Shown here piece by piece: positions 1,421 through 56,899 of a stretch of DNA of 64,000 bases. Numbering within the stretch: position 1 is the stretch's first letter; the number at the start of each line of letters is the position of its first letter. This DNA comes from Dehalococcoidia bacterium (GTDB taxonomy: Bacteria; Chloroflexota; Dehalococcoidia; SHYD01; SHYC01): assembly GCA_009693005.1 (NCBI GenBank), contig SHYC01000001.1, forward strand, positions 3,580 to 67,579, written 5' to 3'. The translations under genes and the position numbers were made by a program. The notes beneath the pieces were generated by a model, which was given only the letters and a program-made list of their open reading frames with translations, had not been told where the DNA came from and did no database searches.

Positions 1421-3292
1421 CTAGGCCTTGGCGGCGATGGAGGCGTCGATCTCTTTCTGCCGGGCGCTGCGAGCGAACCACCAATCCGCATGGAGCTTCT
1501 TCGCTGATTCCGGCCACGACGGCTCGGCTTTTCTTGGAATCTCCCATTCTTCCCAGGATTTTTTCAGAGCAATGTTCAGCTTCTGTCGCAACGGGTCCAG
1601 CGTTTCCTGCCAGTTGTCCCAGATGACATCAATCTCTACGTTAGCAGTGATAGATTTCAACATAATGTGGGGGACCCGGTCGTACACGAAGCCTTGGCGC
1701 ACGTTGTTGTGAACCGTCTGCGAGGAGGGTGTGTTGCGCATAATCTCTGCCTCTTTGATCTGACCTTCACGTGAATCAGCAAGCAAGTAATATGGATACC
1801 GCGCGCCCATGATACGAGCACGAGCGAGTGCCAGCGCGACACGGGAGGTATCGATAGTGATCCACCGGCGTCCCCATTGCTCTGCGACAAAAGCGGTTGT
1901 CCCTGCGCCACAGGTAGGGTCTAGAACCAAGTCCCCCGGATCAGTCGCCATCATGATGCATTTCTGTACTTGGCGGGTTGACGTTTGAACCACATATATC
2001 TTTTCATACGAGGTGCTCGCCGAACCCGAGTCGGTCCAAATGTTGCTCATAGTGGACAACGGGTTGTCCTCATGGAACGCCACTAAGTAGGGTAGCGTTC
2101 CGTGTAGGACCAGGCGATCGGCTTTGATTAGGGTGTTCATGCCATCCTGATTCGTTCGCCAGCTCTTCTTGTTCCTATGGATATGCGTTCCTTGAAGCTC
2201 AAAATCGAACATACAAGTCGGGGTGTATCCAGAGGATAGCATCCCTTGCGGAGAATACAGCTTCCACTCTCTTGGAAGAGATTCGAGATTGTCTAATTCT
2301 TCCCTAGCAAGCTTTCGGCGCTCGCCACTCGGAAGTTCAGCGTAGTCATAGCGAGATTCAGATCCCTTTGCTTTCATGTCGAATATCGGTCGGAACTTGA
2401 TGCTGCCTTTGGACTTTGCATACCAGATGACGTAGTCCGTAACGTTGGCCATTCCGCCGGTTCCCAGTGGCGACAGCTTCTTTAGAGTGATTAGCGAAAA
2501 GAAGTTCTGATCACCAAAAATCTCGTCCATAAGTGCGCGGATACGATGAACGTTTTCATCACCGATCTGAACGAATATCGATCCGGATTCAGCCAGCAGA
2601 TCGCGAGCGACTGTTAAGCGATCTCTTAGGTACGTCAGATAGGAGTGAACTCCATCCCGCCAGGTGTCTCGGAACGCCTTCACTTGTTCGGGCTCCCGCG
2701 TGATATGTTCGGCATTCCCATCTTTCACATCGCGGCTTGTTGTAGACCACTGGAAGTTGGAGTCAAACCTGATGCCGTAGGGCGGGTCCATATAGATACA
2801 CTGCACCTTGCTGCGCAGTCCTTCCCGCTCCGCCAGGCTGGCCATAACTTGCAGGGAGTCGCCTAGGATCATGCGGTTGGACCAGTTCTGGTCGTGCTGG
2901 TAGAAGTCGGTCCTGTCAGCTCCTTCAGGCATACCGTTAAAGTCCCCAAACAAGTCTAGCTGGTCACCGTCTGCGGGCCCGCCTGCTTTGCTATGGCGCA
3001 GCAGGTCATCGATGAGCACCTTGGGATGCACCTTCTCCTGGATGTAGAGAGGTGGCGCGTGGACCACCAGATCGCTCCAGTCCTGCGCATCCTTGCCGCG
3101 CCACACAAGCTGCGGATCGAGATCGCGGTTGCGCCGCTCGTATGCCACCCGGACGGGATTCTCTTGATCCTTCTCGATAACAGACTGGTACTCCGCGGTC
3201 GGGATGTTCTTCCGCGTAGCCTCGTCGTGGACGAGGGTTTCAATGGATTTAGCGGTGTACTTTCTCGCTCTGGCTTTAGGACTACTAGCCAT
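1421..3292 (-). CDS. mod: Type III restriction-modification Mod subunit: beta-class N6-adenine DNA methyltransferase. Motif IV (DPPY) precedes motif I (VLDPTCGAGTT).
   Basis: 623 aa ORF. Motifs present: NRMILGDSLQVM, CIYMDPPYG and a C-terminal VLDPTCGAGTTAFVAEQWGRRWITID. A GAGGGA ribosome-binding site lies 11 nt after the res stop. The gene ends in TAG at 1421-1423. Confidence 0.85.
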   Translation of the reverse strand: MASSPKARARKYTAKSIETLVHDEATRKNIPTAEYQSVIEKDQENPVRVAYERRNRDLDPQLVWRGKDAQDWSDLVVHAPPLYIQEKVHPKVLIDDLLRHSKAGGPADGDQLDLFGDFNGMPEGADRTDFYQHDQNWSNRMILGDSLQVMASLAEREGLRSKVQCIYMDPPYGIRFDSNFQWSTTSRDVKDGNAEHITREPEQVKAFRDTWRDGVHSYLTYLRDRLTVARDLLAESGSIFVQIGDENVHRIRALMDEIFGDQNFFSLITLKKLSPLGTGGMANVTDYVIWYAKSKGSIKFRPIFDMKAKGSESRYDYAELPSGERRKLAREELDNLESLPREWKLYSPQGMLSSGYTPTCMFDFELQGTHIHRNKKSWRTNQDGMNTLIKADRLVLHGTLPYLVAFHEDNPLSTMSNIWTDSGSASTSYEKIYVVQTSTRQVQKCIMMATDPGDLVLDPTCGAGTTAFVAEQWGRRWITIDTSRVALALARARIMGARYPYYLLADSREGQIKEAEIMRNTPSSQTVHNNVRQGFVYDRVPHIMLKSITANVEIDVIWDNWQETLDPLRQKLNIALKKSWEEWEIPRKAEPSWPESAKKLHADWWFARSARQKEIDASIAAKA

Positions 3293-3303
3293 ACCTGTCC
3301 CTC

Positions 3304-5130
3304 TTAAGCCACCGGCTGCGCTGCGACGGCTTCGATGATCTTATTGAACTCGCCTTCCACCTTGGCCTCGAAATCGGCCTCGATCTGATAGACTTCGGTT
3401 AACTCGGCGAAGGCCCAACGGCCCTGGGCGCCCAGATGGTTCACACCTGGTACCCAGTAGGTATCCATGGTAGCCTTCTTCTCCTTCGCATCTTCCCGGC
3501 GATAGCCCTTGATTTCAACAATCAGGTGCAGGAGGTCGTCATCACCGTGACCGTCATCCACCAGCACGATGAAATCGGGAAGATACTTGCGCGTCTCTGA
3601 GCCAAAGCGATACGGAACCTCTAGTCCGAGCCCTTGATTCTTCACGTAGGCTCTAACACGGGGATGGGCCTCAGCGACCCGGCAGAATTCGGCTTCCCAA
3701 TCGCTGTCCAGGACGACCCAGTTGAGATGGCAGCGCCGCGGATCGGTCTGCCAACGGCGCTTCTTCGATGTGTTGAAGTTGACGTGCATTGTAGAGCCAA
3801 CGGGATTGTAAGGGTCGGGGAGTGCTTTGATGGGGCGTTCGCCCACCAACGCTCGGGTGATGCCAGCGGTGATCCGTTCGCAGGCTATGTCGGCCAATTC
3901 CTGGTACATGAGCTGGGCGGGGTAGCTGCCTCCTTTGCAGAGGAGGCAGCTGTCTAGCCAGTCTTTGGTGATGCGTTTTAGCTGACCGAACAAGTGGAGC
4001 TTGGGTTCTTCTCCAGGGTCGCGCCATTTGGTGTAGAGCAAGCGCTTGGTAACGTGGAAGAGCAGTGTAGAAGGCCGCATGTCTTCAAGGTGTTCCAGAT
4101 TCAGATCAACTTCTTCTCCGATGATACCAGCGTTCCTAGTGATGGATGGGCCAACAAGATCAGGAGTGAGTTCCAAGATTGAGTCAGCGTTGAACTCGGC
4201 TCTCAGACGCTCCTCCGGCAATTCCACGCGATAGCCTTCAACGCGCGGGAAGCGGATTTCGAGTGCATCACGCTCGGGCCGGACAGCCCTGACCTGAATA
4301 GTCTGGCGGGGCGGCTGCGGCGGCGCAACAACGGGTTTGGCCGTAAAGTCAAACGGGATGCCCAGCACGTCCGCATATTCAACGTTGAAGAGACCTTCAT
4401 CCGGACCTTCCTCGATCAAGTCGTAAGACTGGCGCCGCAAGGCCCGGCCAATGACTTGTTCGCAGAGAAGCTGGGTCCCGAAGGCGCGTACTCCCAACAC
4501 GTGGGTGACGGTGTTAGTATCCCAACCTTCGGTGAGCATGGAGACCGATACTACGCAGCGGATAGATTCGCCCAACCGATCGGGCTTGCCGACGGTGTTC
4601 ATGACCTCCCGCAGTAGGTCATTGTCTGTGATATTATCGGCCTGCCGCGGATCGCCGGTTCGTTCTACGATCTCACGGCGGAACCGTTCTATCTCATCGG
4701 CTGCCATGGCGCGGAAGTTATCGTCCAGCGCTTCGCCGGATTCGAGCTGCGCGCTATCTATCAGCAGCGTATTCGGTCGGGCGAAGGGGTTGCCGTACTC
4801 ATCGAAGTTGCGGAACAGCTCAAGCCGGCCATTTACCAGGGTGGTTGAAGCATCTTCGTTCTGCCGGGTGAAGCCCGAAACGTAATCGTAAACTAGCTTG
4901 GATATGGAGGTATTCTGACAAACTATTATGAAGCAAGGCGGGACAATAATACCGCTCGCCTGCCATAGGTCAAATGTCTTCCTATAATGCCCATAGAGCG
5001 CTTCCAAAGCTGTCTGGAGCTCAACGGGCAGGCCTGAGCGGGTCAAGCGGCCCTGAGTTGATGCGGTTCTTCTTTGGCATCCGGGTCCGAATATGCTCCC
5101 ACAGATTGCGGAATCGGGGCATTTGTCCAC
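3304..5130 (-). CDS. res: Type III-like restriction endonuclease Res subunit, distal fragment: helicase C-terminal domain (motif VI QVIGRALRR) plus a C-terminal PD-(D/E)xK nuclease (PDFIV...VEIKG). It is out of frame with the upstream fragment.
   Basis: 608 aa ORF that overlaps ORF 5021..6376 in a different frame. The TAA stop is 11 nt upstream of the mod start. Confidence 0.75.
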   Translation of the reverse strand: MDKCPDSAICGSIFGPGCQRRTASTQGRLTRSGLPVELQTALEALYGHYRKTFDLWQASGIIVPPCFIIVCQNTSISKLVYDYVSGFTRQNEDASTTLVNGRLELFRNFDEYGNPFARPNTLLIDSAQLESGEALDDNFRAMAADEIERFRREIVERTGDPRQADNITDNDLLREVMNTVGKPDRLGESIRCVVSVSMLTEGWDTNTVTHVLGVRAFGTQLLCEQVIGRALRRQSYDLIEEGPDEGLFNVEYADVLGIPFDFTAKPVVAPPQPPRQTIQVRAVRPERDALEIRFPRVEGYRVELPEERLRAEFNADSILELTPDLVGPSITRNAGIIGEEVDLNLEHLEDMRPSTLLFHVTKRLLYTKWRDPGEEPKLHLFGQLKRITKDWLDSCLLCKGGSYPAQLMYQELADIACERITAGITRALVGERPIKALPDPYNPVGSTMHVNFNTSKKRRWQTDPRRCHLNWVVLDSDWEAEFCRVAEAHPRVRAYVKNQGLGLEVPYRFGSETRKYLPDFIVLVDDGHGDDDLLHLIVEIKGYRREDAKEKKATMDTYWVPGVNHLGAQGRWAFAELTEVYQIEADFEAKVEGEFNKIIEAVAAQPVA

Positions 5131-48797: not shown

Positions 48798-49076
48798 TTA
48801 GCCCGGAATCATGCCTTCACCCACAAATAAGTTTCGCGCTTCATCAAGACTGGTATCCGGAGGCGGCAAGATCACGTCGGACTCTACCAGTTCGTCCGAC
48901 ATCAGAGGCTTGCCGTTTGTCCTCACGTACTGAAGCATTTCTGATAAAATGCGCTGGAACTCAGCAGCATCTCCCCTGGCAGTGACCTCCACCAGCTTAT
49001 TGTCCATTTCATTCAACTCATCCAGGGCTGAGCTAGGCATCCTGTACTGTTCCTCTGTCGCAATGCGTACTATCAT
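48798..49076 (-). CDS. PspA-associated small protein (PspAA-like). Overlaps the pspA stop by 4 nt.
   Basis: 92 aa. Position and size match PspA-associated partners; the sequence assignment is tentative. Confidence 0.45.
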   Translation of the reverse strand: MIVRIATEEQYRMPSSALDELNEMDNKLVEVTARGDAAEFQRILSEMLQYVRTNGKPLMSDELVESDVILPPPDTSLDEARNLFVGEGMIPG

Positions 49077-49807
49077 GAACCGGCTCCTAATTGAGGTCGT
49101 TCTCCACCAGCCGCGAGCTGGCGCTTCATCGCCTCCAGTTCTGTATCCACATTTTGGTTGGCGGAGAGCCTTGACAGCTCACGTGCCAGGGGGTCGTTTC
49201 CTCGGGAGGAGGCATCCTCAAGTAGGCCTGTCTCAGCCAGCTCATCGATAGCCTCAGCCCTCGCCTTCATCTTTTCTGTCTTGTCTTCAATTCTCTCCAT
49301 GGCCAGGTCAACGTTCGCCATCTCCTCTGACAGGCCCGTTACCGCCTCATTGATGCGTACCGATGCCTCTGCCGCCGAGTACTGCGCTTTTACGACCTCT
49401 TTACGAGTCCGGAAGGCGGTGACCTTGGCTTGCAGACGACTCTCCGCCAAAGTCAACTTCTCCTGTTCTTTTTCCAGATCGCCGATTTGAGGGCCCAGGT
49501 CGTTCAACTGTATCATGGCCAGTTGTTTGCGCTGCAGCGCCATTTTTGCCAAGTCTTCTCTCCCCGCATTAAGGGCTTGCCGCGCCTGCTCCTCGGCCTT
49601 TGCAGCGTCAGCCTGTATCTTGTTGGCCTGAAGCTCCAGCCTGCGCCTGGAGGTCACCACCTCAACCACCCCCTGCTTTACTTTTCGCAGCATCTCCAGC
49701 TGTTTTTCGTAGGAATACTCTATGGTCTCACTGGGGTTCTCCGACTGGTCAAGGATTTTCGTGAGCTTTGCCTGTATGACCATAGACATTCTAGATAAAA
49801 GTCCCAT
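49073..49807 (-). CDS. pspA: PspA/IM30/Vipp1-family membrane-stress coiled-coil protein
   Basis: 244 aa. N-terminus MGLLSRMSMVIQAKLTKILDQSENPSETIEYSYEKQLEMLRKV, typical of PspA. Confidence 0.85.
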   Translation of the reverse strand: MGLLSRMSMVIQAKLTKILDQSENPSETIEYSYEKQLEMLRKVKQGVVEVVTSRRRLELQANKIQADAAKAEEQARQALNAGREDLAKMALQRKQLAMIQLNDLGPQIGDLEKEQEKLTLAESRLQAKVTAFRTRKEVVKAQYSAAEASVRINEAVTGLSEEMANVDLAMERIEDKTEKMKARAEAIDELAETGLLEDASSRGNDPLARELSRLSANQNVDTELEAMKRQLAAGGERPQLGAGS

Positions 49808-49846: not shown

Positions 49847-50095
49847 TTGTACCACCAACTATCGGATAGCATGAAGATCATTAGCCGTGATAGGATGGAT
49901 AATTATGCGAAGGATGTTGTGACGGGAGCAGAAGCAGGTCTTATCAGGTCCCGGGTACTTGAGGAGATAGACCAAAGCCCCACTACCATTGAGCGAGTGA
50001 GTGTTACTGACGAAGCGAGAGCTAGAGAGATTATCCGTCAGTATGATGACAAAAACTCCTCTCTCACTGATGCTACTAATACCTATTATCTATAA
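49847..50095 (+). CDS. Hypothetical small protein upstream of the methyltransferase-helicase locus
   Basis: 82 aa ORF only. Confidence 0.3.
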   Translation: MYHQLSDSMKIISRDRMDNYAKDVVTGAEAGLIRSRVLEEIDQSPTTIERVSVTDEARAREIIRQYDDKNSSLTDATNTYYL

Positions 50096-50169
50096 ACGGG
50101 TTATATGGTAAACTCCTGATATGGCAGTAGCAACACCGATCGAGTTGACCGACAGCGAACTGAGCGCAG

Positions 50170-50823
50170 ATGGATAAGCAGGTTGTCTCCAAGCAGCGGG
50201 TTACCGATCATGGCGAGGTGTTGACCGGAAGGCGGGAGGTCAACGCCATGCTGGATTTGGTGAAGTCCGAGACCGAACGGATAGACGCGCGTTTCCTCGA
50301 ACCCGCCTGTGGGACCGGCAACTTCCTGGCCGAAATCCTCGAACGCAAGCTCCGCGTGGTCGAGACGCGCTACAGGAAGAGCCGACTTGAGTTCGAACGC
50401 TATGCCATTCTCGCCGTCTCATCCATCTACGGCATCGACAAACTCGAAGACAACGTCCAGCAGTGTCGCCAGCGGCTCTTCGGGAAATTCGATATAAGCT
50501 ACACGCGCTTGTTCAAAGGCAAGTCAAGCGACGGCTGCCGTGAATCCGTGCGCTTCATTCTTGAACGGAATATCATTCACGGCGACGCCCTTTCCCTCAC
50601 AACCGAGGGCTACAACCCGAGGCCGATTGCTTTCTCCGAATGGTCGCCGGTCAATGGCAGCATGCTGAAGCGGCGGGACTTCACCTTCCACGAGTTGCTC
50701 GAGCATGAAGCACTCAAGGAACCACGCGTTTCCGATCTCGGCAAGAAGGTTTTCATCCCGACGCCGCAGAAGGAATACCCGCCTACCCATTTCTTGAGGG
50801 TGGCAGATGTTGTCGAGCAGTAA
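50170..50823 (+). CDS. Short, degenerate N6-adenine-methyltransferase-like protein. It keeps motif X and motif I (FLEPACGTGNFL) but has NPRP in place of NPPY and no target-recognition domain. It is a paralogue of the N-terminal half of the downstream methyltransferase.
   Basis: 217 aa. Hand-aligned to the downstream gene: EVLTGRREVNAMLDLV/EVFTPPQLVNRILDLL and FLEPACGTGNFLAEIL/FLDPGCKSGVFLREIA. Its stop lies 17 nt after the ATG of the next gene. Confidence 0.6.
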   Translation: MDKQVVSKQRVTDHGEVLTGRREVNAMLDLVKSETERIDARFLEPACGTGNFLAEILERKLRVVETRYRKSRLEFERYAILAVSSIYGIDKLEDNVQQCRQRLFGKFDISYTRLFKGKSSDGCRESVRFILERNIIHGDALSLTTEGYNPRPIAFSEWSPVNGSMLKRRDFTFHELLEHEALKEPRVSDLGKKVFIPTPQKEYPPTHFLRVADVVEQ

Positions 50824-52111
50824 CTACAACCCGGACGTGCTCACCTGCATTGCCAACCTGAGCAGTGACGAAGTCTTCACGCCCCCGCAACTGGTGAACC
50901 GGATTCTAGACCTGCTGCCGGAGGACCTCTGGAGAGACAAGAAGGCCACGTTCCTCGATCCCGGCTGCAAGTCGGGCGTGTTCCTGCGCGAGATCGCCAA
51001 GCGCCTCGACAGGGGACTCGAACAGCAATTCCCCGACCGCCAGAAGCGGATGAACCACATCTTCCAGAACCAGCTCTTCGGACTCGCCATCACAGAATTG
51101 ACCGCCCTGCTTTCGCGCCGGTCCGTGTATTGCTCCAAGACGGCCAACGGTAAGTATTCCGTCTGCGAGGCGTTCGACAACCCTGAAGGTAACATCCGTT
51201 TCGGGCGCGTGGAACACGCCTGGGAGAACGGCCGTTGCCGGTACTGCGGGGCCAACGAGGAGAACTACAAGCGTGGCGGCGAACTGGAAAGCCACGCCTA
51301 CGATTTCATTCACACCGACAAGCCGGAGAGAATCTTCAACATGAAATTCGACGTTATCATCGGCAATCCGCCCTACCAGTTGAGCGATGGGGGGTTTGGG
51401 CGAAGCGCATCACCCATCTATCAGAACTTCGTTCAGCAGGCACAAAAGCTAAACCCGCGATTCCTGACCATGATCATTCCCTCGCGATGGTTCGCCGGTG
51501 GCAAGGGATTGAACGATTTTCGAGCCGAAATGCTCGGCGACGACAGAATCCGAAGGATTGTGGACTACGAAGACGCCTCCGAAGTATTTCCGGGCGTGGA
51601 TATAGCGGGGGGAATTTGCTACTTCCTTTGGGAGCGCGACTCCCGCGGTCCATGCGAAGTTACCAATGTTCACAACGAGGAGCGCGTGGTTTCGGTACGG
51701 CCTCTCAACGAGTTTCCAAGGTTGATTAGGCATAGCGAAGCAGTCCCAATCATTCGTAAGGTGTTGGCGAACAAAGAAGCCCGAATGAGCGAGCAAGTGA
51801 CAAGCAGGAAACCATTCGGTCTCGCAACAAATATCCGCCCACTGAAGTCCGGCGACATTACTCTTCGCTGGCAGAATGGAGATGGCCCTTACGAACGTAA
51901 GGACATTAAAGTTGGAGTTGAGATAATCGACCTCTGGAAAACTATTACATCCTACGTTGGCTACGACCATGCGGGAAGCCCCGGCAGCGACGGCCGCCGC
52001 CGGATATTTTCAAAGATCGACATCCTACCTCCTAAGACAATCTGCACAGAGACTTACCTTGTGGTCGGCGCATTTAAGGAGAGAGCGCAAGCCGAGAATC
52101 TGGCCCGGTAA
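50807..52111 (+). CDS. Gamma-class N6-adenine DNA methyltransferase of the Eco57I/TaqI family. Motif I LDPGCKSG and motif IV IIGNPPYQ are present. A four-cysteine insert (C-x10-C-x24-C-x2-C) sits between motifs I and IV. The gene ends at an in-frame TAA, and 67 more in-frame codons follow.
   Basis: 434 aa ORF. The start overlaps the upstream gene. The C-terminal region resembles a TaqI-like specificity domain. Confidence 0.8.
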   Translation: MLSSSNYNPDVLTCIANLSSDEVFTPPQLVNRILDLLPEDLWRDKKATFLDPGCKSGVFLREIAKRLDRGLEQQFPDRQKRMNHIFQNQLFGLAITELTALLSRRSVYCSKTANGKYSVCEAFDNPEGNIRFGRVEHAWENGRCRYCGANEENYKRGGELESHAYDFIHTDKPERIFNMKFDVIIGNPPYQLSDGGFGRSASPIYQNFVQQAQKLNPRFLTMIIPSRWFAGGKGLNDFRAEMLGDDRIRRIVDYEDASEVFPGVDIAGGICYFLWERDSRGPCEVTNVHNEERVVSVRPLNEFPRLIRHSEAVPIIRKVLANKEARMSEQVTSRKPFGLATNIRPLKSGDITLRWQNGDGPYERKDIKVGVEIIDLWKTITSYVGYDHAGSPGSDGRRRIFSKIDILPPKTICTETYLVVGAFKERAQAENLAR

Positions 52112-52315
52112 ATGAAAACGCGCTTCTTCAGATTCCTCGTTGCGCAATTCATGTATTCGCATCACATCACGAAAGATTCGTACGCGTTTGTCCCCATCAT
52201 TGACATGGGTTTTGCCTGGACAGACGAAACGCTCTACAAGCGCTACGGACTGACGAAGGACGAAATCGCCTTCATCGAGTCGAAGATCCGCCCGATGGAG
52301 GCGAAGGGTGAGTAA
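52112..52315 (+). CDS. 67-codon ORF in the same frame as, and contiguous with, the methyltransferase stop. It is probably the methyltransferase C-terminus, separated from it by a nonsense codon. Its 3' end overlaps the helicase GTG start.
   Basis: ...AENLAR-TAA-MKTRFFRFLVAQF...YGLTKDEIAFIESKIRPMEAKGE. Same frame as 50807..52111, confirmed by coordinate arithmetic. A GGAGG for the next gene lies inside it. Confidence 0.5.
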   Translation: MKTRFFRFLVAQFMYSHHITKDSYAFVPIIDMGFAWTDETLYKRYGLTKDEIAFIESKIRPMEAKGE

Positions 52316-54845
52316 CAGCTTCTTCCCGCCGCGCCCGGCATCGCGGCCCACGATCTACGCCTACGGGGATACGAACCCGCAGTATGCGGGCTTGCTCAAG
52401 GTCGGCTACACGACAGTGGACGCGCAATCCCGCGTGGCACAGCAGTACCCAACGCGGCGCCCTGGCCAGCCGCCGTACCGGATTGTTCTCGCAGAGTCCG
52501 CCATGCGCAATGACGGAACGGTGTTTACCGACCATGATGTACACCGGATGCTGCGGCTCAACGGCGTCAAGAATCCGGAAGGTGAGTGGTTCCGGTGTAC
52601 GGACACCGATGTCAAGGCGGCCATCATCGCCGTGAGAACAGGCCAACTGAATGAGGAGAATCGATCGCTGGATTTCAGTATGCGGCCGGAGCAGGAAGCG
52701 GCGGTCGAGAAGACCGCGGCCTACTTCGCCAGTTGGCGTAAGGAGAAGGGCAATCGCAACAAGCCGCCGCACTTTCTCTGGAACGCCAAGATGCGTTTTG
52801 GGAAGACCTTCGCCGCGTACCAGTTGGCGAAAAGCATGGGCTGGAGGAAGGTGCTCGTTCTCACTTTCAAACCGGCTGTACAAGGCGCCTGGGAAGAGGA
52901 CCTGAACCAACACGTCGATTTCAAGGGCTGGCAGTTCATCAAACCCGGTGGGCTGACTTACGAACAGGCGGACAGGACACGGCCGTTCGTCTGTTTCGGG
53001 TCGTTTCAAGACTACCTGGGCCGGAATTCCAGCACGGGCGGCATCAAGACGAAAAACGAATGGGTGCACGCCACGAATTGGGATTGCGTGATTCTTGACG
53101 AATACCACTACGGGGCTTGGCGAGAGAACGCGAAGGAACTTTTTGAGGCCGAGGACAAGCAGGAGGTCGAGTTCGGCGAGGGGGAAGGCATCAAGGACTT
53201 CGACGAAGACATCATGCCGATCACCACGGACGGCTACCTCTATCTCTCCGGCACCCCATTCCGTGCCATCGCTTCCGGCGAGTTCATCGAGGAGCAGATA
53301 TTCAACTGGACCTATTCCGATGAACAGCGGGCAAAGCGGGATTGGCAACGCCCCAACAACCCCTACGCCGCGCTGCCCCGAATGGTGCTCCTGACCTACC
53401 AAATCCCGGACGCGATTCGGGAAGTCGCTATGCAGGGCGAATTCAACGAGTTCGACTTGAACGTCTTCTTCTCCGCCGAGGGCATCGGCAACAAGGCGAA
53501 GTTCAAGTATGAGGACGAGGTTCAGAAGTGGCTGGACCTGATAAGGGGTTCGTTCCTGCCGACCAGCATTGACAACCTGAAACTCGGAGCGCAAAAGCCG
53601 CCGATGCCGTTCTCGGACGCGCGACTGCTCAACGTGCTGTCGCACACGTTCTGGTTTCTGCCCAGCGTGGCGGCGTGTGACGCTATGCGCAACCTGCTGG
53701 CGAAGAAGCAGAAACGATTCTATCACGACTATAAAGTCATCGTGGCGGCGGGGAGCGCCGCAGGAATCGGTGTCGCAGCCTTGCCGCCTGTTCAGGAAGC
53801 GATGGGAGATCCGCTCACTACGAGGACCATCACCCTCTCCTGCGCAAAATTGACCACGGGAGTGACGGTGAGACCCTGGACGGGCATTCTCATGCTCCGC
53901 AATTCCTCCACTCCGGAGACCTACTTTCAGGCGGTCTTCCGCGTGCAGTCGCCCTGGACGGTTCGAAACCCAGATGGTGCGTCCCCGAACGAAGAGCAGA
54001 TCATCAAGGAGGAGTGCTACGTATTCGACTTCGCCCCGGACCGGGCGTTGCGGCAGATCGCCGATTACAGTTGCCGATTGAACGTCGACGAGGCGAACCA
54101 GGAAAAGAAGGTGGAAGAGTTCATCAGCTTCCTGCCGGTCTTGGCCTACGACGGCAGTTCGATGAAGCAGATTGACGCCGCCGGCATTCTCGACATGGCG
54201 ATGAGCGGCACGACGGCAACCCTGCTGGCGCGGCGCTGGGAAAGCGCCTTGCTGGTGAATGTGGACAACGACACCCTGCGCCGCCTGATGGACAACAAAA
54301 AGGCGCTGGATGCCCTCATGAGCATCGAGGGCTTTCGCAATCTCAATCAGGAAATTGAGACGATCATCAACAAGTCGGAGGCCGTGAAGAAAGCACGCAA
54401 GGCGGCCAACGACGCGGAGGTGTCCGCCAATGAGAAGAAAGAGCTGACCGCGGAAGAGAAGGAATACAAGAGTCTGCGGAAGCAGATTCAGGAAAAGCTC
54501 ATCAAGTTCGCGACGCGAGTTCCTATCTTCATGTATTTGACCGACTACCGCGAACGAAGCCTCAAGGATGTCATTACACAACTGGAGCCGGGTCTGTTCA
54601 AGAAGGTCACCGGGTTGATGGTAAAGGACTTCGAGTTACTTGTGAGCCTTGGTGTCTTCAACAGCGCGTTAATGAACGACGCGGTTTACAAGTTCAAACG
54701 CTACGAGGACGCGAGCCTGAGCTACACAGGGATCAACAAGCACGAAGGCGAAGACGTCGGGTTGTACGACACCGTGTTGAGCCGTAATGACTACCAGGCG
54801 ACTTTCGTCAATGAGGCGGTCGAAGGCTACGACGGCACGAGGTGA
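52308..54845 (+). CDS. Fusion protein: an N-terminal T5orf172/GIY-YIG-like domain (IYAYGD...GLLKVGYTT...GEWFRCT) plus an SF2 helicase (motif I FGKT, motif II DEYH, motif VI QAVFRVQSP) and a C-terminal coiled-coil region
   Basis: 845 aa. GTG start 7 nt after a GGAGG, overlapping the preceding ORF. Helicase motifs were read by eye. Confidence 0.8.
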   Translation: MSNSFFPPRPASRPTIYAYGDTNPQYAGLLKVGYTTVDAQSRVAQQYPTRRPGQPPYRIVLAESAMRNDGTVFTDHDVHRMLRLNGVKNPEGEWFRCTDTDVKAAIIAVRTGQLNEENRSLDFSMRPEQEAAVEKTAAYFASWRKEKGNRNKPPHFLWNAKMRFGKTFAAYQLAKSMGWRKVLVLTFKPAVQGAWEEDLNQHVDFKGWQFIKPGGLTYEQADRTRPFVCFGSFQDYLGRNSSTGGIKTKNEWVHATNWDCVILDEYHYGAWRENAKELFEAEDKQEVEFGEGEGIKDFDEDIMPITTDGYLYLSGTPFRAIASGEFIEEQIFNWTYSDEQRAKRDWQRPNNPYAALPRMVLLTYQIPDAIREVAMQGEFNEFDLNVFFSAEGIGNKAKFKYEDEVQKWLDLIRGSFLPTSIDNLKLGAQKPPMPFSDARLLNVLSHTFWFLPSVAACDAMRNLLAKKQKRFYHDYKVIVAAGSAAGIGVAALPPVQEAMGDPLTTRTITLSCAKLTTGVTVRPWTGILMLRNSSTPETYFQAVFRVQSPWTVRNPDGASPNEEQIIKEECYVFDFAPDRALRQIADYSCRLNVDEANQEKKVEEFISFLPVLAYDGSSMKQIDAAGILDMAMSGTTATLLARRWESALLVNVDNDTLRRLMDNKKALDALMSIEGFRNLNQEIETIINKSEAVKKARKAANDAEVSANEKKELTAEEKEYKSLRKQIQEKLIKFATRVPIFMYLTDYRERSLKDVITQLEPGLFKKVTGLMVKDFELLVSLGVFNSALMNDAVYKFKRYEDASLSYTGINKHEGEDVGLYDTVLSRNDYQATFVNEAVEGYDGTR

Positions 54846-54902
54846 ACCCAGTGAACCGGCTAGCAACCGATTGACGCAGACGGTTTTGCCGTAATGGAAC
54901 GT

Positions 54903-55238
54903 CTAGGCATCTCTTACGCGTTTACTTTTGATCGCAACTTCGCTCAGTGTGGCTTGACCGTTCTCAAAGCATAACCGCTGCGGCTGCAACCGGTCGGTCA
55001 AGTGCCGCAAAACAACATAAGGCCGACTAAAGAACTCCCTAATTCTCGCCTCAGATTCGTCAGAGGCGTAGCCATCCAGATATGCCACCTCCGCCTCAGC
55101 CATCGTTGAAACGACGATCTCAACATCGCCCCTGTTCGCGGCTGCAATGATAAGATCACATTCCGTCTCAAGCAGCTGATACCCAGCCAGATATCCTAGG
55201 ATGATGTTGCTACACCAAAGCCGTCGAGGAATCGCCAT
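54903..55238 (-). CDS. Hypothetical protein; weak resemblance to PIN-like nucleases, not established
   Basis: 111 aa with a DLIIAAANRGDVEIVVS segment. Canonical PIN motif order is not preserved. Confidence 0.35.
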   Translation of the reverse strand: MAIPRRLWCSNIILGYLAGYQLLETECDLIIAAANRGDVEIVVSTMAEAEVAYLDGYASDESEARIREFFSRPYVVLRHLTDRLQPQRLCFENGQATLSEVAIKSKRVRDA

Positions 55239-55250
55239 TATGGGTTTCTC

Positions 55251-56042
55251 CTACCCAACGCGCACCGAGCGAAGAAACTCTACAGGGTTTCTTGCCGCTT
55301 CCTGATCAGGAATTGAGCCAAACTCGGCCTTAGGCGGGCTGTAATCCGGCGTGTTGTCCTCAATGTCGGAGATATTCGTTATGGAGCGCGGTACTCCATT
55401 CCTGAAGTAGTAGACCATGCCCCTAACTAACACCCGTCTGTCCAAGAATCCACTGACACGTCCAATCCAATCCGAGTTCTTTGGAAAGAAGCAACGAACG
55501 GGTGCACGACTTACACGATCCCATATGGTGAGGGTAGAAGAGCCGTGAAGATTAATTGCCTCTAGGTTCCCCTCAAGAGAACCGAGGTTATTGTAACTCT
55601 CAGCAAGAATCCTATTGGCCTTCTCACGAATGTCATCGCGGATGGTGGCCGCTTGCATCTTTTCAACAGAGACTACAATAGCCTTGGCCCGATCTCTTCC
55701 GGCGAACAGGCGATTCATTCGCTTCAGATCGTCTAAGGCCGCCTCGTTAAAGTACCTCGGAGGCTCGCTCGCCCCTGCGGTCACAACTGCAAGCCCCTGA
55801 GCGATGGCATCAACCGTCTCAGAATCACCCAAGAGAGAGCGAATTGTGACCGTTGGAGCACTGGAATGAAGCTCGTCAATCACCCAACGCCGAGGACTCT
55901 TTTCGTGAGTGACAGCATAATCTACGTCTCTGATAAGGCGCTCAATGTCCTCTATCGCCTTTCGGAATAGACTCAGAGACGCAGACTCAGCATCAGGCTG
56001 TATAGTGAACGTAATTCCATTCTGCATCATGCCCTCCTGCAA
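55251..56042 (-). CDS. Hypothetical protein
   Basis: 263 aa ORF with no recognisable motif, 12 nt upstream of the previous gene. Confidence 0.45.
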   Translation of the reverse strand: MQEGMMQNGITFTIQPDAESASLSLFRKAIEDIERLIRDVDYAVTHEKSPRRWVIDELHSSAPTVTIRSLLGDSETVDAIAQGLAVVTAGASEPPRYFNEAALDDLKRMNRLFAGRDRAKAIVVSVEKMQAATIRDDIREKANRILAESYNNLGSLEGNLEAINLHGSSTLTIWDRVSRAPVRCFFPKNSDWIGRVSGFLDRRVLVRGMVYYFRNGVPRSITNISDIEDNTPDYSPPKAEFGSIPDQEAARNPVEFLRSVRVG

Positions 56043-56215
56043 CCCCTAATGGGTGCAGATACCCCCTTAGGGGTATACACTAGATTTAGGTAAAAGTCCA
56101 GCGCATACGTTTGGTATGCAGGGAGTATTAACTTGGCTAGGAGGGGGCCGAACTCAAAGAGGTTTGGCCTTTTCTGTCCCCGCAAGTCTGTTAGGAATCA
56201 AACAAGCTACTAAAG

Positions 56216-56899
56216 TTACATCTGTCCCAGGCTGTTCGGGCGGAACACCTCGGCTGTTGCCTTCCAGTACTCCCCGAGCTCTTTTGCCCAGGTCTCGGTC
56301 TCCTCCACCACCTGTCCTTCCTCTACCTCCTGGCTTAGGCCAATCAGGTTAGCGTTCATATCGGACAGGCGCGTTATCAGTCCGTCAAGGGCGTTCTTCT
56401 GCTCCTCTTCCAGCTTGCGGAGGGCTTCCACGTTTTGAGGGCTGGCGTTTACCAGAGGGCCTTTGCCCTGGTCCAAGTCTACCAGACCCTGCGCCAGGAT
56501 TTTATGTCTTTGGATACGTGCGGCAAGGCCGGGCAAGACCTCTTTATCGATGCTGTTGATCATGACTTTAACATCGGACTTCACGCCCTCGATGGACAGA
56601 TGTTGTATCTGTCTTTCCAGGGCGTCTCGTCTTTCCAGGGCACCGATAAAATACGGCTCATTGGAGACCGCGCTGTAAAGAAGTATGCGCCGGTATACCA
56701 TCGGTTCGACCTGTGTTGCCGCCATCCCCAGCCAGCTTACCAGTGATATTGCGGCTGGTATGTACCAGGAGGAGGCAAAGGCAGCCAGTGGAGGCAGGTT
56801 AAGCACAGCCAGCACCAATAATACGCCAGCTATGCCAAACCACTTCGCCGGCGAAGCCAAACCAGCTTTTAGTATCGCGCTCAGGGTCCTTAAGGCCAT
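56216..56899 (-). CDS. Hypothetical membrane protein (two N-terminal transmembrane helices plus a coiled-coil region)
   Basis: 227 aa. Begins 12 nt after the VWA gene. Confidence 0.45.
   Translation of the reverse strand: MALRTLSAILKAGLASPAKWFGIAGVLLVLAVLNLPPLAAFASSWYIPAAISLVSWLGMAATQVEPMVYRRILLYSAVSNEPYFIGALERRDALERQIQHLSIEGVKSDVKVMINSIDKEVLPGLAARIQRHKILAQGLVDLDQGKGPLVNASPQNVEALRKLEEEQKNALDGLITRLSDMNANLIGLSQEVEEGQVVEETETWAKELGEYWKATAEVFRPNSLGQM

What the first reader, a model, noticed from the sequence alone, without database searches (positions are those of the whole stretch)
49847..54845. Candidate novel NTP-dependent restriction or defence system: a decoy-like methyltransferase paralogue, an Eco57I-family methyltransferase, and a GIY-YIG(T5orf172)-helicase fusion
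Three tightly coupled genes, with overlapping stops and starts and a ribosome-binding site embedded in the preceding ORF. (1) A 217 aa protein keeps the AdoMet-binding half of a gamma-class m6A methyltransferase but has NPRP in place of NPPY and no target-recognition domain. (2) A full gamma-class methyltransferase carries an unusual four-cysteine insert and ends at an in-frame TAA, followed by 67 further in-frame codons that look like its natural C-terminus. (3) An 845 aa protein fuses a T5orf172/GIY-YIG-like module to an SF2 DEYH helicase. Classical Type III Res has a C-terminal PD-ExK nuclease. CglI and NgoAVII-type systems use PLD nucleases on a separate subunit. An N-terminal GIY-YIG-like nuclease on the helicase, together with a truncated methyltransferase paralogue, does not match a described restriction-modification type as far as I can tell. 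It may also be a non-restriction abortive-infection system that uses methyltransferase-like sensing.
Basis: partly seen in the sequence, partly recalled or inferred. Interest (0 to 1): 0.8.

Follow-up and report, generated by a model that had tools for sequence, protein, structure and literature searches.

The report
DrdVI-type restriction-modification operon, methylase gene broken
The three genes are a copy of an already catalogued restriction-modification system (the REBASE "DrdVI" family: two methylase-like proteins plus a nuclease-helicase), very widespread in environmental microbes, and in this genome its main methylase gene carries a premature stop.

Summary
Three overlapping plus-strand genes are present. 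A (50170-50823, 217 aa) is a methyltransferase-like protein that lacks the catalytic motif. B (50807-52315) is an Eco57I-family m6A methyltransferase with an in-frame TAA at 52109-52111. C (52308-54845, 845 aa) fuses a T5orf172/GIY-YIG domain to an SF2 helicase.

The claim of novelty does not hold. The same trio, in the same order, lies on plasmid pDrdVI of Deinococcus wulumuqiensis NEB 479, at 43%, 47% and 57% protein identity. [quoted passage not shown] M1 and M2 cloned together methylate GCAGCC (m6A). MaeIV is a second member with a known motif. A PADLOC restriction-modification profile also matches B and C.

The family is very large: at least 587 species representatives across many bacterial phyla and some archaea, with 73-89% identity in C. 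Single-chain nuclease-helicase-methylase relatives exist and still keep a separate A gene next to them.

The most likely function is ATP-dependent restriction, resembling Type ISP or Type III enzymes. In this genome it is probably switched off by the stop codon, which replaces a Tyr conserved in 61 of 62 relatives.

Side finding: in some relatives the trio is an integron gene cassette.

The parts
50170..50823 (+). Gene A, the M1.DrdVI homologue (217 aa). It is a methyltransferase-like protein with canonical AdoMet-binding motifs: HGEV-T, FLEPACGxGNFL, YGID and IIHGDAL. It has no NPPY motif and no target-recognition domain. A conserved I-x-FSEWS element sits where motif IV would be.
   Evidence: It is 43% identical (E 4e-53) to the pDrdVI ORF at 2175-2813. 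hhalign places A 14-103 against B 20-107 with probability 97%. Motif conservation is shown. The gene is present upstream of B/C in nearly all related loci and next to fused C-B genes.
50807..52315 (+). Gene B, the M2.DrdVI homologue. It is an Eco57I-family gamma-class N6-adenine methyltransferase, 502 codons long, with an invariant NPPY at residues 187-190. It has a conserved 4-Cys insert and a variable target-recognition region at about residues 281-460. It is interrupted by a nonsense codon.
   Evidence: Pfam Eco57I, E 6.6e-37. It is 47% identical (E 3e-167) to the pDrdVI ORF at 2822-4441. Conservation profile; motif columns.
52109..52111 (+). In-frame TAA inside gene B, at a codon that is Tyr in relatives. 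It splits B into 434 + 67 codons.
   Evidence: The column is Y in 61 of 62 relatives and F in one. The following Met is ancestral in this lineage (L103 reads ...GYMKTRFFRFLVAQF), so a single TAY>TAA change explains the stop. The closest relatives have an intact B of 504-509 aa.
52308..54845 (+). Gene C, the R.DrdVI homologue (845 aa). An N-terminal T5orf172/GIY-YIG nuclease-type domain (about residues 12-110; Y17, Y34, R42, E93 conserved) is fused to an SF2 helicase/translocase. The helicase has GKT at 165-167, DEYH at 264-267, SGTP at 314-317, and a highly conserved C-terminal region.
   Evidence: Pfam T5orf172, MUG113 and ResIII. It is 57% identical over 97% of its length to the pDrdVI gene. 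Invariant columns are. dN/dS is about 0.05-0.08.
54858..54908 (+). Weak: a degenerate relic of an integron attC-type site just after the C stop (GGCTAGC...GTCTAGGC). It is homologous to the 5' arm of the attC-like site that follows the trio in L001, L015 and L010.
   Evidence: The blastn match to L001 runs 39 nt past the stop; alignment. It does NOT reach significance with the attC covariance model, so this is a relic at best.
50144..50150 (+). Weak: GTTGACC, at the position where relatives carry the GTTAGCC (R') box of the preceding attC, 20 nt before the A start (25-30 nt counted from the box's first base).
   Evidence: Alignments. It rests on sequence resemblance only.

Best explanation
The locus is a member of the DrdVI family of restriction-modification systems. 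REBASE files this family under Type IIG and calls it a 'split methylase' with a fused translocase-nuclease.

Shown for relatives:
- The M1+M2 pair (homologues of A and B), cloned together, methylates one adenine in a short asymmetric site. The site is GCAGCC for DrdVI and GCACY for MaeIV.

Inferred for this copy:
- B recognises its own site through the variable C-terminal region and methylates it with its NPPY active site.
- A, which keeps a canonical AdoMet-binding motif but no catalytic motif, is an obligatory partner of B. It would be a scaffold or AdoMet-binding subunit, not a second enzyme and not a decoy.
- C docks on the A/B recognition module at unmodified sites, uses ATP to move along DNA, and cuts with its N-terminal GIY-YIG-type domain. 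By analogy with Type ISP and Type III enzymes, cutting would follow the meeting of two enzymes or a block to movement.
- C has no recognisable DNA-specificity domain of its own. Loss of B should therefore silence both methylation and restriction, which would make B a safe off-switch.

In this genome B carries a TAA at a conserved Tyr codon. The system is therefore most likely switched off or recently inactivated, unless the stop is an assembly error. A and C are still intact.
For: Family membership:
- The same three genes, in the same order and with overlapping ORFs, lie on pDrdVI. Identities are A 43% (E 4e-53), B 47% (E 3e-167) and C 57% over 97% of its length.
- PMC6430315 Table 1 gives M1-2.DrdVI, GCAGCC, m6A, IIG, cloned in E. 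coli and deposited in REBASE.
- PMC10113651 places M1/M2.MaeIV, motif GCACY, in the same 'split methylase/RM' family.

B and C work as one enzyme:
- Single-chain T5orf172-ResIII-Eco57I proteins exist: P0387, P0374 and P0377.
- PADLOC PDLC03626 (1359 positions) matches C at 174-803, B at 1009-1272 and the 67-aa tail at 1288-1359.

A is a core component:
- It is present in nearly all loci with enough upstream DNA.
- It is still a separate gene beside the fused C-B gene in L090-L095, L097, L099 and L106.

Catalytic potential:
- NPPY is invariant in B.
- The GIY-YIG-type residues Y17, R42 and E93, and the helicase motifs GKT and DEYH, are invariant or nearly so in C.
- T5orf172 belongs to the GIY-YIG nuclease superfamily, and phage ICP1 Gp88, which carries this domain, is described as an origin-directed nuclease (PMC8263062).

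Restriction-modification-like evolution:
- B residues 281-460 are variable while the rest is conserved.
- Relatives carry inserted genes between the core genes: Bro-N/DinD-like, YhcG/DUF1016, RhuM and Fic. Genes of this kind are reported between the core genes of Type I operons (PMC9881135).

Inactivation:
- The TAA sits at a Tyr column (61 of 62 relatives), and the closest relatives are intact.
- B is disrupted in about 6 of 63 other loci and C in about 3 of 80.
Against: - No restriction activity of DrdVI or any homologue is described in the papers I could read. Only methylation by M1+M2 is documented.
- Whether M1 is needed has not been reported. The two genes were always cloned together.
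- A related but distinct trio in B. subtilis (DnmA-YeeB-YeeC) gave no phage protection.
- The translocation-and-collision step is an analogy only. Profile searches against solved structures found no close relative: no Type ISP or Type III enzyme was recovered and the best matches were weak (RapA, XPB).
- Both AlphaFold models were unusable, with mean pLDDT of 38 and 44.
- The TAA may be a sequencing or assembly error in a metagenome-assembled genome.
Confidence: 0.8

Rival explanations
1. The TAA is an assembly or sequencing error, or a minority variant, and the system is fully active in the organism.
For: The contig is a metagenome-assembled Dehalococcoidia contig (P0001). A and C are perfectly intact. 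The stop is a single-base change from TAY.
Against: Nonsense or frameshift lesions in B also occur in independent relatives. L001, L002 and L003 share a TAG across three assemblies; L030 has a TGA; L027, L036 and L084 have frameshifts. Real inactivation of B is therefore common. No reads are available to check this copy.
Confidence: 0.25
2. The split B is still functional. Translation stops at the TAA and restarts at the adjacent ATG (TAAATG), and the 434-aa and 67-aa pieces assemble into an active methylase.
For: The stop and an ATG are directly adjacent. The 67-aa tail is conserved and intact.
Against: The ATG is ancestral: Met occupies that column in 19 of 62 relatives, and L103 reads YMKTRFF. 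It was therefore not created together with the stop. The closest relatives all encode one uninterrupted protein. There is no precedent in the family.
Confidence: 0.08
3. This is not a restriction system. The locus would be a remnant whose methylase acts, or acted, as an orphan epigenetic methylase, or an abortive-infection device that uses methylase-like sensing.
For: B. subtilis DnmA-YeeB-YeeC shows methylation but no restriction or phage protection. No published cleavage data for DrdVI were found.
Against: - Here the methylase is the broken gene, not the nuclease-helicase.
- C is under strong purifying selection (dN/dS about 0.05-0.08), with its catalytic residues invariant.
- B, C and their fusions always co-occur.
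- The specificity region of B diversifies, as in restriction-modification systems.
- V. crassostreae DnmA/YeeB homologues do protect against some phages.
- No match to any abortive-infection or other defence model in PADLOC was found beyond the restriction-modification profiles and the T5orf172-only PDC-S57.
Confidence: 0.1

Closest known systems
DrdVI system of Deinococcus wulumuqiensis NEB 479, plasmid pDrdVI (REBASE: M1.DrdVI, M2.DrdVI, DrdVI; motif GCAGCC, m6A; listed as Type IIG)
   Same: Same three proteins, in the same order, with overlapping ORFs. Identities are A/M1 43%, B/M2 47% and C/R 57%. C is a GIY-YIG domain fused to a translocase. M2 is Eco57I-type with the same Cys insert and the same Lys-containing motif I (FLDPxxKSGVFL).
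   Different: The specificity region of B diverges, so the recognition sequence is probably not GCAGCC. B is 502 codons here against 539 in DrdVI, and it is interrupted by a TAA. This copy is chromosomal in a Dehalococcoidia genome, not on a plasmid.
MaeIV of Methanococcus aeolicus PL15/Hp (M1.MaeIV + M2.MaeIV; GCACY, m6A)
   Same: [quoted passage not shown] M1 and M2 were cloned together and shown to methylate.
   Different: I did not have its sequence, so no direct comparison was made. It comes from an archaeal host.
Type ISP enzymes LlaGI and LlaBIII
   Same: Same set and order of modules: nuclease, SF2 helicase, gamma-class adenine methylase and specificity domain. Single-chain relatives of C-B reproduce that order in one polypeptide. 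The Type ISP authors themselves pointed to related enzymes with helicase subunits and GIY-YIG nucleases.
   Different: The nuclease is GIY-YIG/T5orf172, not Mrr/PD-(D/E)xK. Here the enzyme is split into separate R and M proteins, with an extra M1 protein that Type ISP enzymes lack. No sequence-level match to the solved LlaBIII/LlaGI chains was found.
DnmA(YeeA)-YeeB-YeeC of Bacillus subtilis and Vibrio crassostreae
   Same: An adenine methylase together with an SF2 helicase and a T5orf172/GIY-YIG protein in one conserved operon. It was proposed as a restriction-modification system in 2009.
   Different: There the methylase is a large MmeI-like protein, the helicase and T5orf172 are separate proteins, and the order is M-helicase-nuclease. 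There is no M1-like small protein. I made no direct sequence comparison.
Type III systems (EcoP15I Mod/Res)
   Same: A two-part logic of a methylase that finds the site and a Res-type SF2 ATPase-nuclease. C matches Pfam ResIII. The modified sites are asymmetric and methylated on one strand.
   Different: From established knowledge, Type III Mod is a beta-class methylase that acts as a homodimer, and Res carries a C-terminal PD-(D/E)xK nuclease. Here the methylase is gamma-class Eco57I-type and the nuclease is an N-terminal GIY-YIG type.

Membership tests
DrdVI family (REBASE 'split methylase' + fused translocase-REase) | Small M1 methylase-like protein encoded immediately upstream of M2 | tested here: met
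   A is 43% identical to the pDrdVI 212-aa ORF (E 4e-53) and occupies the same position.
DrdVI family (REBASE 'split methylase' + fused translocase-REase) | M2: an Eco57I-type N6-adenine methylase with NPPY and a C-terminal specificity region | tested here: met
   47% identity over the full length (E 3e-167). Pfam Eco57I. NPPY is invariant. In this copy a TAA interrupts the gene.
DrdVI family (REBASE 'split methylase' + fused translocase-REase) | R protein: a GIY-YIG-type nuclease domain fused to an SF2 translocase | tested here: met
   Pfam T5orf172 + ResIII. 57% identity over 97% of the pDrdVI gene. The description of DrdVI is in PMC4996451.
DrdVI family (REBASE 'split methylase' + fused translocase-REase) | m6A methylation of a short asymmetric site by M1+M2 | not testable with these tools
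   Shown for DrdVI and MaeIV only. No methylome is available for this organism.
DrdVI family (REBASE 'split methylase' + fused translocase-REase) | Identity of the REBASE entries with the pDrdVI ORFs compared here | not testable with these tools
   REBASE is not available. The assignment rests on pDrdVI carrying only this one methylase locus and on Table 1 of PMC6430315.
Type ISP (LlaGI/LlaBIII) | A single polypeptide carrying nuclease, helicase, methylase and specificity domain | tested here: not met
   There are three separate genes here. Single-chain relatives exist elsewhere.
Type ISP (LlaGI/LlaBIII) | Mrr-type PD-(D/E)xK nuclease domain | tested here: not met
   The N-terminus of C matches T5orf172/MUG113, which belong to the GIY-YIG superfamily.
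Type ISP (LlaGI/LlaBIII) | ATP-driven translocation with cleavage on head-on collision | not testable with these tools
   This needs biochemistry.
Type III (EcoP15I-like) | Res subunit with an SF2 helicase followed by a C-terminal PD-(D/E)xK nuclease | tested here: not met
   ResIII is matched, but the nuclease-type domain is N-terminal and of GIY-YIG type. No PD-(D/E)xK family was hit.
Type III (EcoP15I-like) | Beta-class Mod methylase | tested here: not met
   B has the gamma-class order (motif X, I ... NPPY, then the specificity region) and matches Eco57I/N6_Mtase.
Type IIG (strict definition: one polypeptide with both cleavage and methylation) | R and M activities in the same chain, with no NTP requirement | tested here: not met
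   R and M are separate genes, and R has a conserved ATPase. REBASE and PADLOC nevertheless file the family under IIG.
Integron gene cassette | attC recombination site at the 3' end of the cassette | tested here: not met
   In the window there is no match with E below 1 to the attC model R1, only a relic. In relatives L001, L010, L015, L022 and L024 the feature is met, with further same-strand sites nearby.

The most novel reading that the evidence does not exclude
The small protein A (M1) is not a redundant half-methylase. It would be an obligatory, catalytically dead AdoMet-binding subunit. A keeps the canonical motif I (FLEPACGxGNFL), whereas the catalytic partner B has an invariant Lys in place of the first glycine of its own motif I. 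A might therefore supply or sense AdoMet for a composite A-B enzyme, or license the nuclease-helicase.

In addition, the whole 4.7-kb three-gene system moves as a single integron cassette. That would help explain its presence, at 73-89% identity, in hundreds of species of bacteria and in archaea.
Probability: 0.3. Interest if true: 0.55.

Novelty: new member of a known kind. Interest (0 to 1): 0.3.

Why it matters
For genome annotation, the result turns a supposed new defence system into a recognisable DrdVI-type restriction-modification operon that is probably inactive here.

The family itself remains poorly studied. I found no published cleavage mechanism, no test of whether M1 is required, and no structure. 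Yet it is one of the most widespread and conserved restriction-type enzymes seen in environmental genomes. Its helicase-nuclease shows about 88% identity across phyla with synonymous sites near saturation.

The integron-cassette context in some relatives and the conserved pseudo-methylase partner are leads worth testing. They belong to the family, not specifically to this window.

Tried and rejected
- AlphaFold2 on A (alignment A1) and C (alignment A2) gave mean pLDDT of 38 and 44. The alignments were too shallow, the models are unusable, and I ran no fold search.
- Sequence and profile searches of A, B and C against PDB chains found nothing informative. There was one weak HsdM hit for A, weak RapA/XPB hits for the C profile, and none for B.
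- NCBIfam gave no family-level match for any of the three proteins.
- PADLOC gave no match to non-restriction defence systems such as Hma, MADS, DISARM, BREX or Azaca. It returned only generic methylase-level hits and PDC-S57 for the T5orf172 domain.
- A search for an integron integrase, using an IntI1 sequence recalled from memory, found only a degenerate C-terminal remnant in L010 and weak generic recombinase hits. It found nothing in the window.
- The attC covariance model found no significant site in the window.
- I checked whether in-frame stops in B are a programmed feature. They are sporadic, at different positions and with different stop codons, in about 6 of 63 loci. I rejected the idea.
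- I rejected 'NPRP replaces NPPY' because those residues are not conserved.


Full report
**1. What is in the sequence**

The region carries three plus-strand ORFs that overlap each other.
- A: 50170-50823, 217 aa.
- B: 50807-52111, 434 aa. A TAA follows, and then 67 more in-frame codons run to 52315.
- C: 52308-54845, 845 aa, with a GTG start.

The B start lies 17 nt inside A, and the C start lies 8 nt inside the tail of B. Both starts are preceded by purine-rich Shine-Dalgarno-like sequences.

The domain matches are as follows.
- Pfam matches B to Eco57I (E 6.6e-37).
- Pfam matches C to T5orf172 (E 5e-9), MUG113 and ResIII.
- Pfam matches A only weakly, to the N-terminal part of MmeI-type and other methylases.
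- NCBIfam gave nothing at family level.

It has no family match, and homology with related loci begins only at about 50149. It is not part of the unit.

**2. The stop codon in B**

Relatives encode one uninterrupted methylase of 502-509 aa. In an alignment of 63 orthologues, the column of the TAA is Tyr in 61 of 62 relatives and Phe in one.
- The Met codon that follows is ancestral in this lineage. L103 reads ...GYMKTRFFRFLVAQF, against ...AR*MKTRFFRFLVAQF here.
- A single TAY>TAA change therefore explains the stop.
- The closest relatives, whose C proteins are 90-91% identical, have an intact B.

Elsewhere, B is broken by different lesions in about 6 of 63 loci. These are a TAG in L001/2/3, a TGA in L030, and frameshifts in L027, L036, L046 and L084. 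C is broken in about 3 of 80 loci. The stops are sporadic decay, not a programmed feature.

**3. Family size and conservation**

C has more than 8000 cluster representatives in the large protein collection. The best 120 are all 86-100% identical, from Dehalococcoidia (this window, P0001), Nitrospira, Raymondbacteria, Terriglobia and others.
Identity was 73-89% across many bacterial phyla, candidate-phyla-radiation bacteria, and Woesearchaeota and Heimdallarchaeota bins.
- At 50% clustering there are 1156 clusters with E below 1e-30, and full-length relatives go down to about 35% identity.
- DNA identity between the window and L001 or L004 is only about 80%. For C, dS is 0.8-1.3 and dN about 0.07. 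The similarity therefore reflects strong purifying selection rather than very recent transfer.

The A-B-C order is kept in nearly every locus that has enough upstream DNA.

**4. Evidence that the three proteins form one enzyme system**

Single polypeptides with T5orf172 + ResIII + Eco57I domains exist: P0387 (1327 aa), P0374 (1464 aa) and P0377 (1193 aa).
- The PADLOC profile PDLC03626 ('REase_MTase_IIG', 1359 positions) matches C at 174-803, B at 1009-1272 and the 67-aa tail at 1288-1359.
- Beside these fused genes a separate A homologue of 227-237 aa, about 35-38% identical, is still present. It lies immediately upstream in L090-L095, L097 and L099, and immediately downstream in a Lactiplantibacillus plasmid.

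A is therefore a core partner over the whole evolutionary range of the family.

**5. Anatomy of the proteins**

*Protein B*
- Motifs X (DEVFTPP) and IV (NPPY) are invariant.
- Motif I is unusual, FLDPx(C/S)K(S/T)GVFL, with an invariant Lys.
- The four Cys at 109, 120, 144 and 147 are conserved.
- Residues 1-240 and the last 60 or so are conserved, while 281-460 are variable. Mean pairwise column identity there is 0.22-0.5, against about 0.7-0.8 elsewhere. This is as expected for a specificity domain that changes between members.

*Protein A*
- A is homologous to the first 100 residues of B. hhalign aligns A 14-103 with B 20-107 at probability 97%, E 5e-11.
- A keeps a canonical AdoMet-binding set: HGEV-T, FLEPACGxGNFL, YGID and IIHGDAL.
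- Where motif IV should be, A has a nearly invariant I-x-F-S-E-W-S, followed by only about 55 more residues.

*Protein C*
- C keeps the GIY-YIG-type residues Y17, Y34, R42 and E93.
- C keeps the helicase motifs GKT, DEYH and SGTP, an LTTGVTV element, and a Q..FR motif VI. These hold across relatives down to 32% identity.

T5orf172 belongs to the GIY-YIG nuclease superfamily, and the T5orf172 protein Gp88 of phage ICP1 is described as an origin-directed nuclease (PMC8263062).

**6. Comparison with what is known**

A translated search of plasmids found the same trio on pDrdVI of Deinococcus wulumuqiensis NEB 479:
- 'DNA methyltransferase' of 212 aa;
- 'Eco57I ... methylase domain-containing protein' of 539 aa;

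They lie in the same order with overlapping ORFs. Identities to the window proteins are 43% (E 4e-53), 47% (E 3e-167) and 57% over 97% of the length.

Three published sources describe this system.
- The genome announcement lists for this plasmid 'M1-2.DrdVI, GCAGCC, 6mA, IIG'. The methylase genes were cloned in E. coli ER2796 and deposited in REBASE (PMC6430315).
[quoted passage not shown] The broader idea was also raised earlier. Methylase + helicase + GIY-YIG restriction systems, including single-chain forms, were discussed in 2009 for the YeeA/B/C group and in 2012 by the Type ISP authors.

**7. How it most likely works**

*Shown in relatives:* M1+M2 together give site-specific m6A at a short asymmetric site.

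*Inferred:*
- B reads the site and methylates it.
- A is a non-catalytic, AdoMet-binding partner of B.
- C binds the A/B module at unmodified sites, hydrolyses ATP to move on DNA, and cuts with its GIY-YIG-type domain.

The module order matches Type ISP enzymes, and the two-part logic matches Type III. The family fails defining features of both: it has a GIY-YIG nuclease instead of PD-(D/E)xK, a gamma-class rather than beta-class methylase, and an extra M1 protein. It also does not fit the strict definition of Type IIG, although REBASE and PADLOC file it there.

C has no evident specificity domain. A nonsense mutation in B should therefore silence both activities without killing the cell. This fits the observation that B lesions are tolerated in several genomes, including this one.

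I found no published cleavage data for DrdVI, so the restriction step remains an inference.

**8. Side findings**

*Integron context in relatives*
- In several relatives the trio is bounded by about 60-nt imperfect hairpins, with GGCTAAC ... GTTAGCC ends.
- One such site starts 8-15 nt after the C stop. Another ends 25-30 nt before the A start.
- A covariance model built from ten such sites found ten further sites. All lie on the same strand as the trio and are spaced like cassette arrays. They are at L010 1382 and 2602; at L024 113, 10206, 13372, 13948 and 14394; at L017 3489 and 4672; and one borderline hit at L013 11481 (E 0.86).
- L010 also holds a degenerate integron-integrase C-terminus.
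- In those genomes the three-gene system is therefore an integron-type cassette.
- The window itself has no significant site. It has only a shortened relic after the C stop and a GTTGACC box before A.

*Inserted genes*
- Many relatives carry an extra gene between B and C, or between A and B.
- These are Bro-N/DinD-like, YhcG/DUF1016, RhuM, Fic, ORF6N, HARE-HTH and IS200-like genes.
- Genes of this kind are reported between the core genes of Type I operons (PMC9881135).

*Local neighbourhood*
- The window's neighbours are ordinary: a pspA/PspA-associated pair upstream on the minus strand, then unannotated ORFs, and then a VWA/solute-binding protein downstream.

**9. Verdict**

It is not new. 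It is a further, probably inactivated, member of the DrdVI family.

What remains open concerns the family as a whole: the role of M1, the cleavage mechanism, and integron-mediated spread.

Noticed in passing
L010 1382-8088; L024 113-14455; L017 3489-4756; also L001 10551-10614, L015 4919-4978 and 10566-10629, L022 10543-10602, L019 1189-1251, L044 3432-3494: In several related genomes the A-B-C trio is flanked by attC-like sites (GGCTAAC...GTTAGCC, about 60 nt) and sits inside same-strand arrays of such sites. The whole three-gene system behaves there as one integron cassette of about 4.7-5.8 kb. All 20 matches to the model lie on the trio's strand.
   Followed up: partly
L010 2-283: A degenerate remnant of an integron-integrase C-terminus (...MIYTHVLNKGGHGVQSPVDRL*), with stop codons just upstream. 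It lies at the start of a contig binned as Woesearchaeota.
   Followed up: no
L004 7400-8008; L015 7151-8008; L041 2996-4108; L027 6702-7982; L064 6916-8001; L061 647-1714; L045 5888-6478; L060 7087-8004; L062 5716-6312; L068 1138-1992: Many relatives carry an extra gene inserted between B and C or between A and B. These are Bro-N/DinD-like, YhcG/DUF1016, Fic, RhuM, ORF6N, HARE-HTH and IS200-like Y1 transposase genes. Genes of this kind are reported between the core genes of Type I restriction operons.
   Followed up: partly
window 52308-54845 compared with L004, L010 and L014: The nuclease-helicase is unusually conserved for a restriction enzyme. It shows about 88% protein identity across phyla with dS of 0.8-1.3 and dN of about 0.07. 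The C-terminal region, residues 600-820, is the most conserved part.
   Followed up: partly
window 50951-50986 (B residues 49-60): Motif I of the catalytic methylase B is FLDPx(C/S)K(S/T)GVFL. An invariant Lys sits where gamma-class methylases normally have the first glycine. The non-catalytic partner A has the canonical FLEPACGxGNFL.
   Followed up: no
L001 7631-7633; L030 6800-6802; L027, L036, L084 (B); L034 3289 and L047 8466 (C): Independent nonsense or frameshift lesions occur in the methylase gene B, and less often in C, in other genomes. In Nitrospira the TAG is shared by three separate assemblies.
   Followed up: partly
It has no family match and is not conserved next to the trio elsewhere. 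By eye, its C-terminal residues (...YDDKNSSLTDATN...) resemble a fragment of a PIN-type toxin.
   Followed up: no
window 50122-50178: A short upstream ORF (MAVATPIELTDSELSADG*) overlaps the start codon of A. Its 3' part (GAACTGAGC) is shared with L001.
   Followed up: no
window 48798-49807 (minus strand): A PspA/IM30 gene and a PspA-associated gene lie directly upstream of the trio on the other strand. ORFs without family matches lie downstream at 54903-56899. The neighbourhood is not a recognisable defence island.
   Followed up: no
L106 (Lactiplantibacillus plantarum plasmid NZ_CP094390) 2425-11196: The fused 1465-aa form lies between an RNA-directed DNA polymerase gene and, downstream, the A-like 'DNA methyltransferase', a hypothetical gene and an AbiH gene. 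This looks like a plasmid-borne defence cluster. About 30 Enterococcus and 9 Lactococcus plasmids carry relatives.
   Followed up: no
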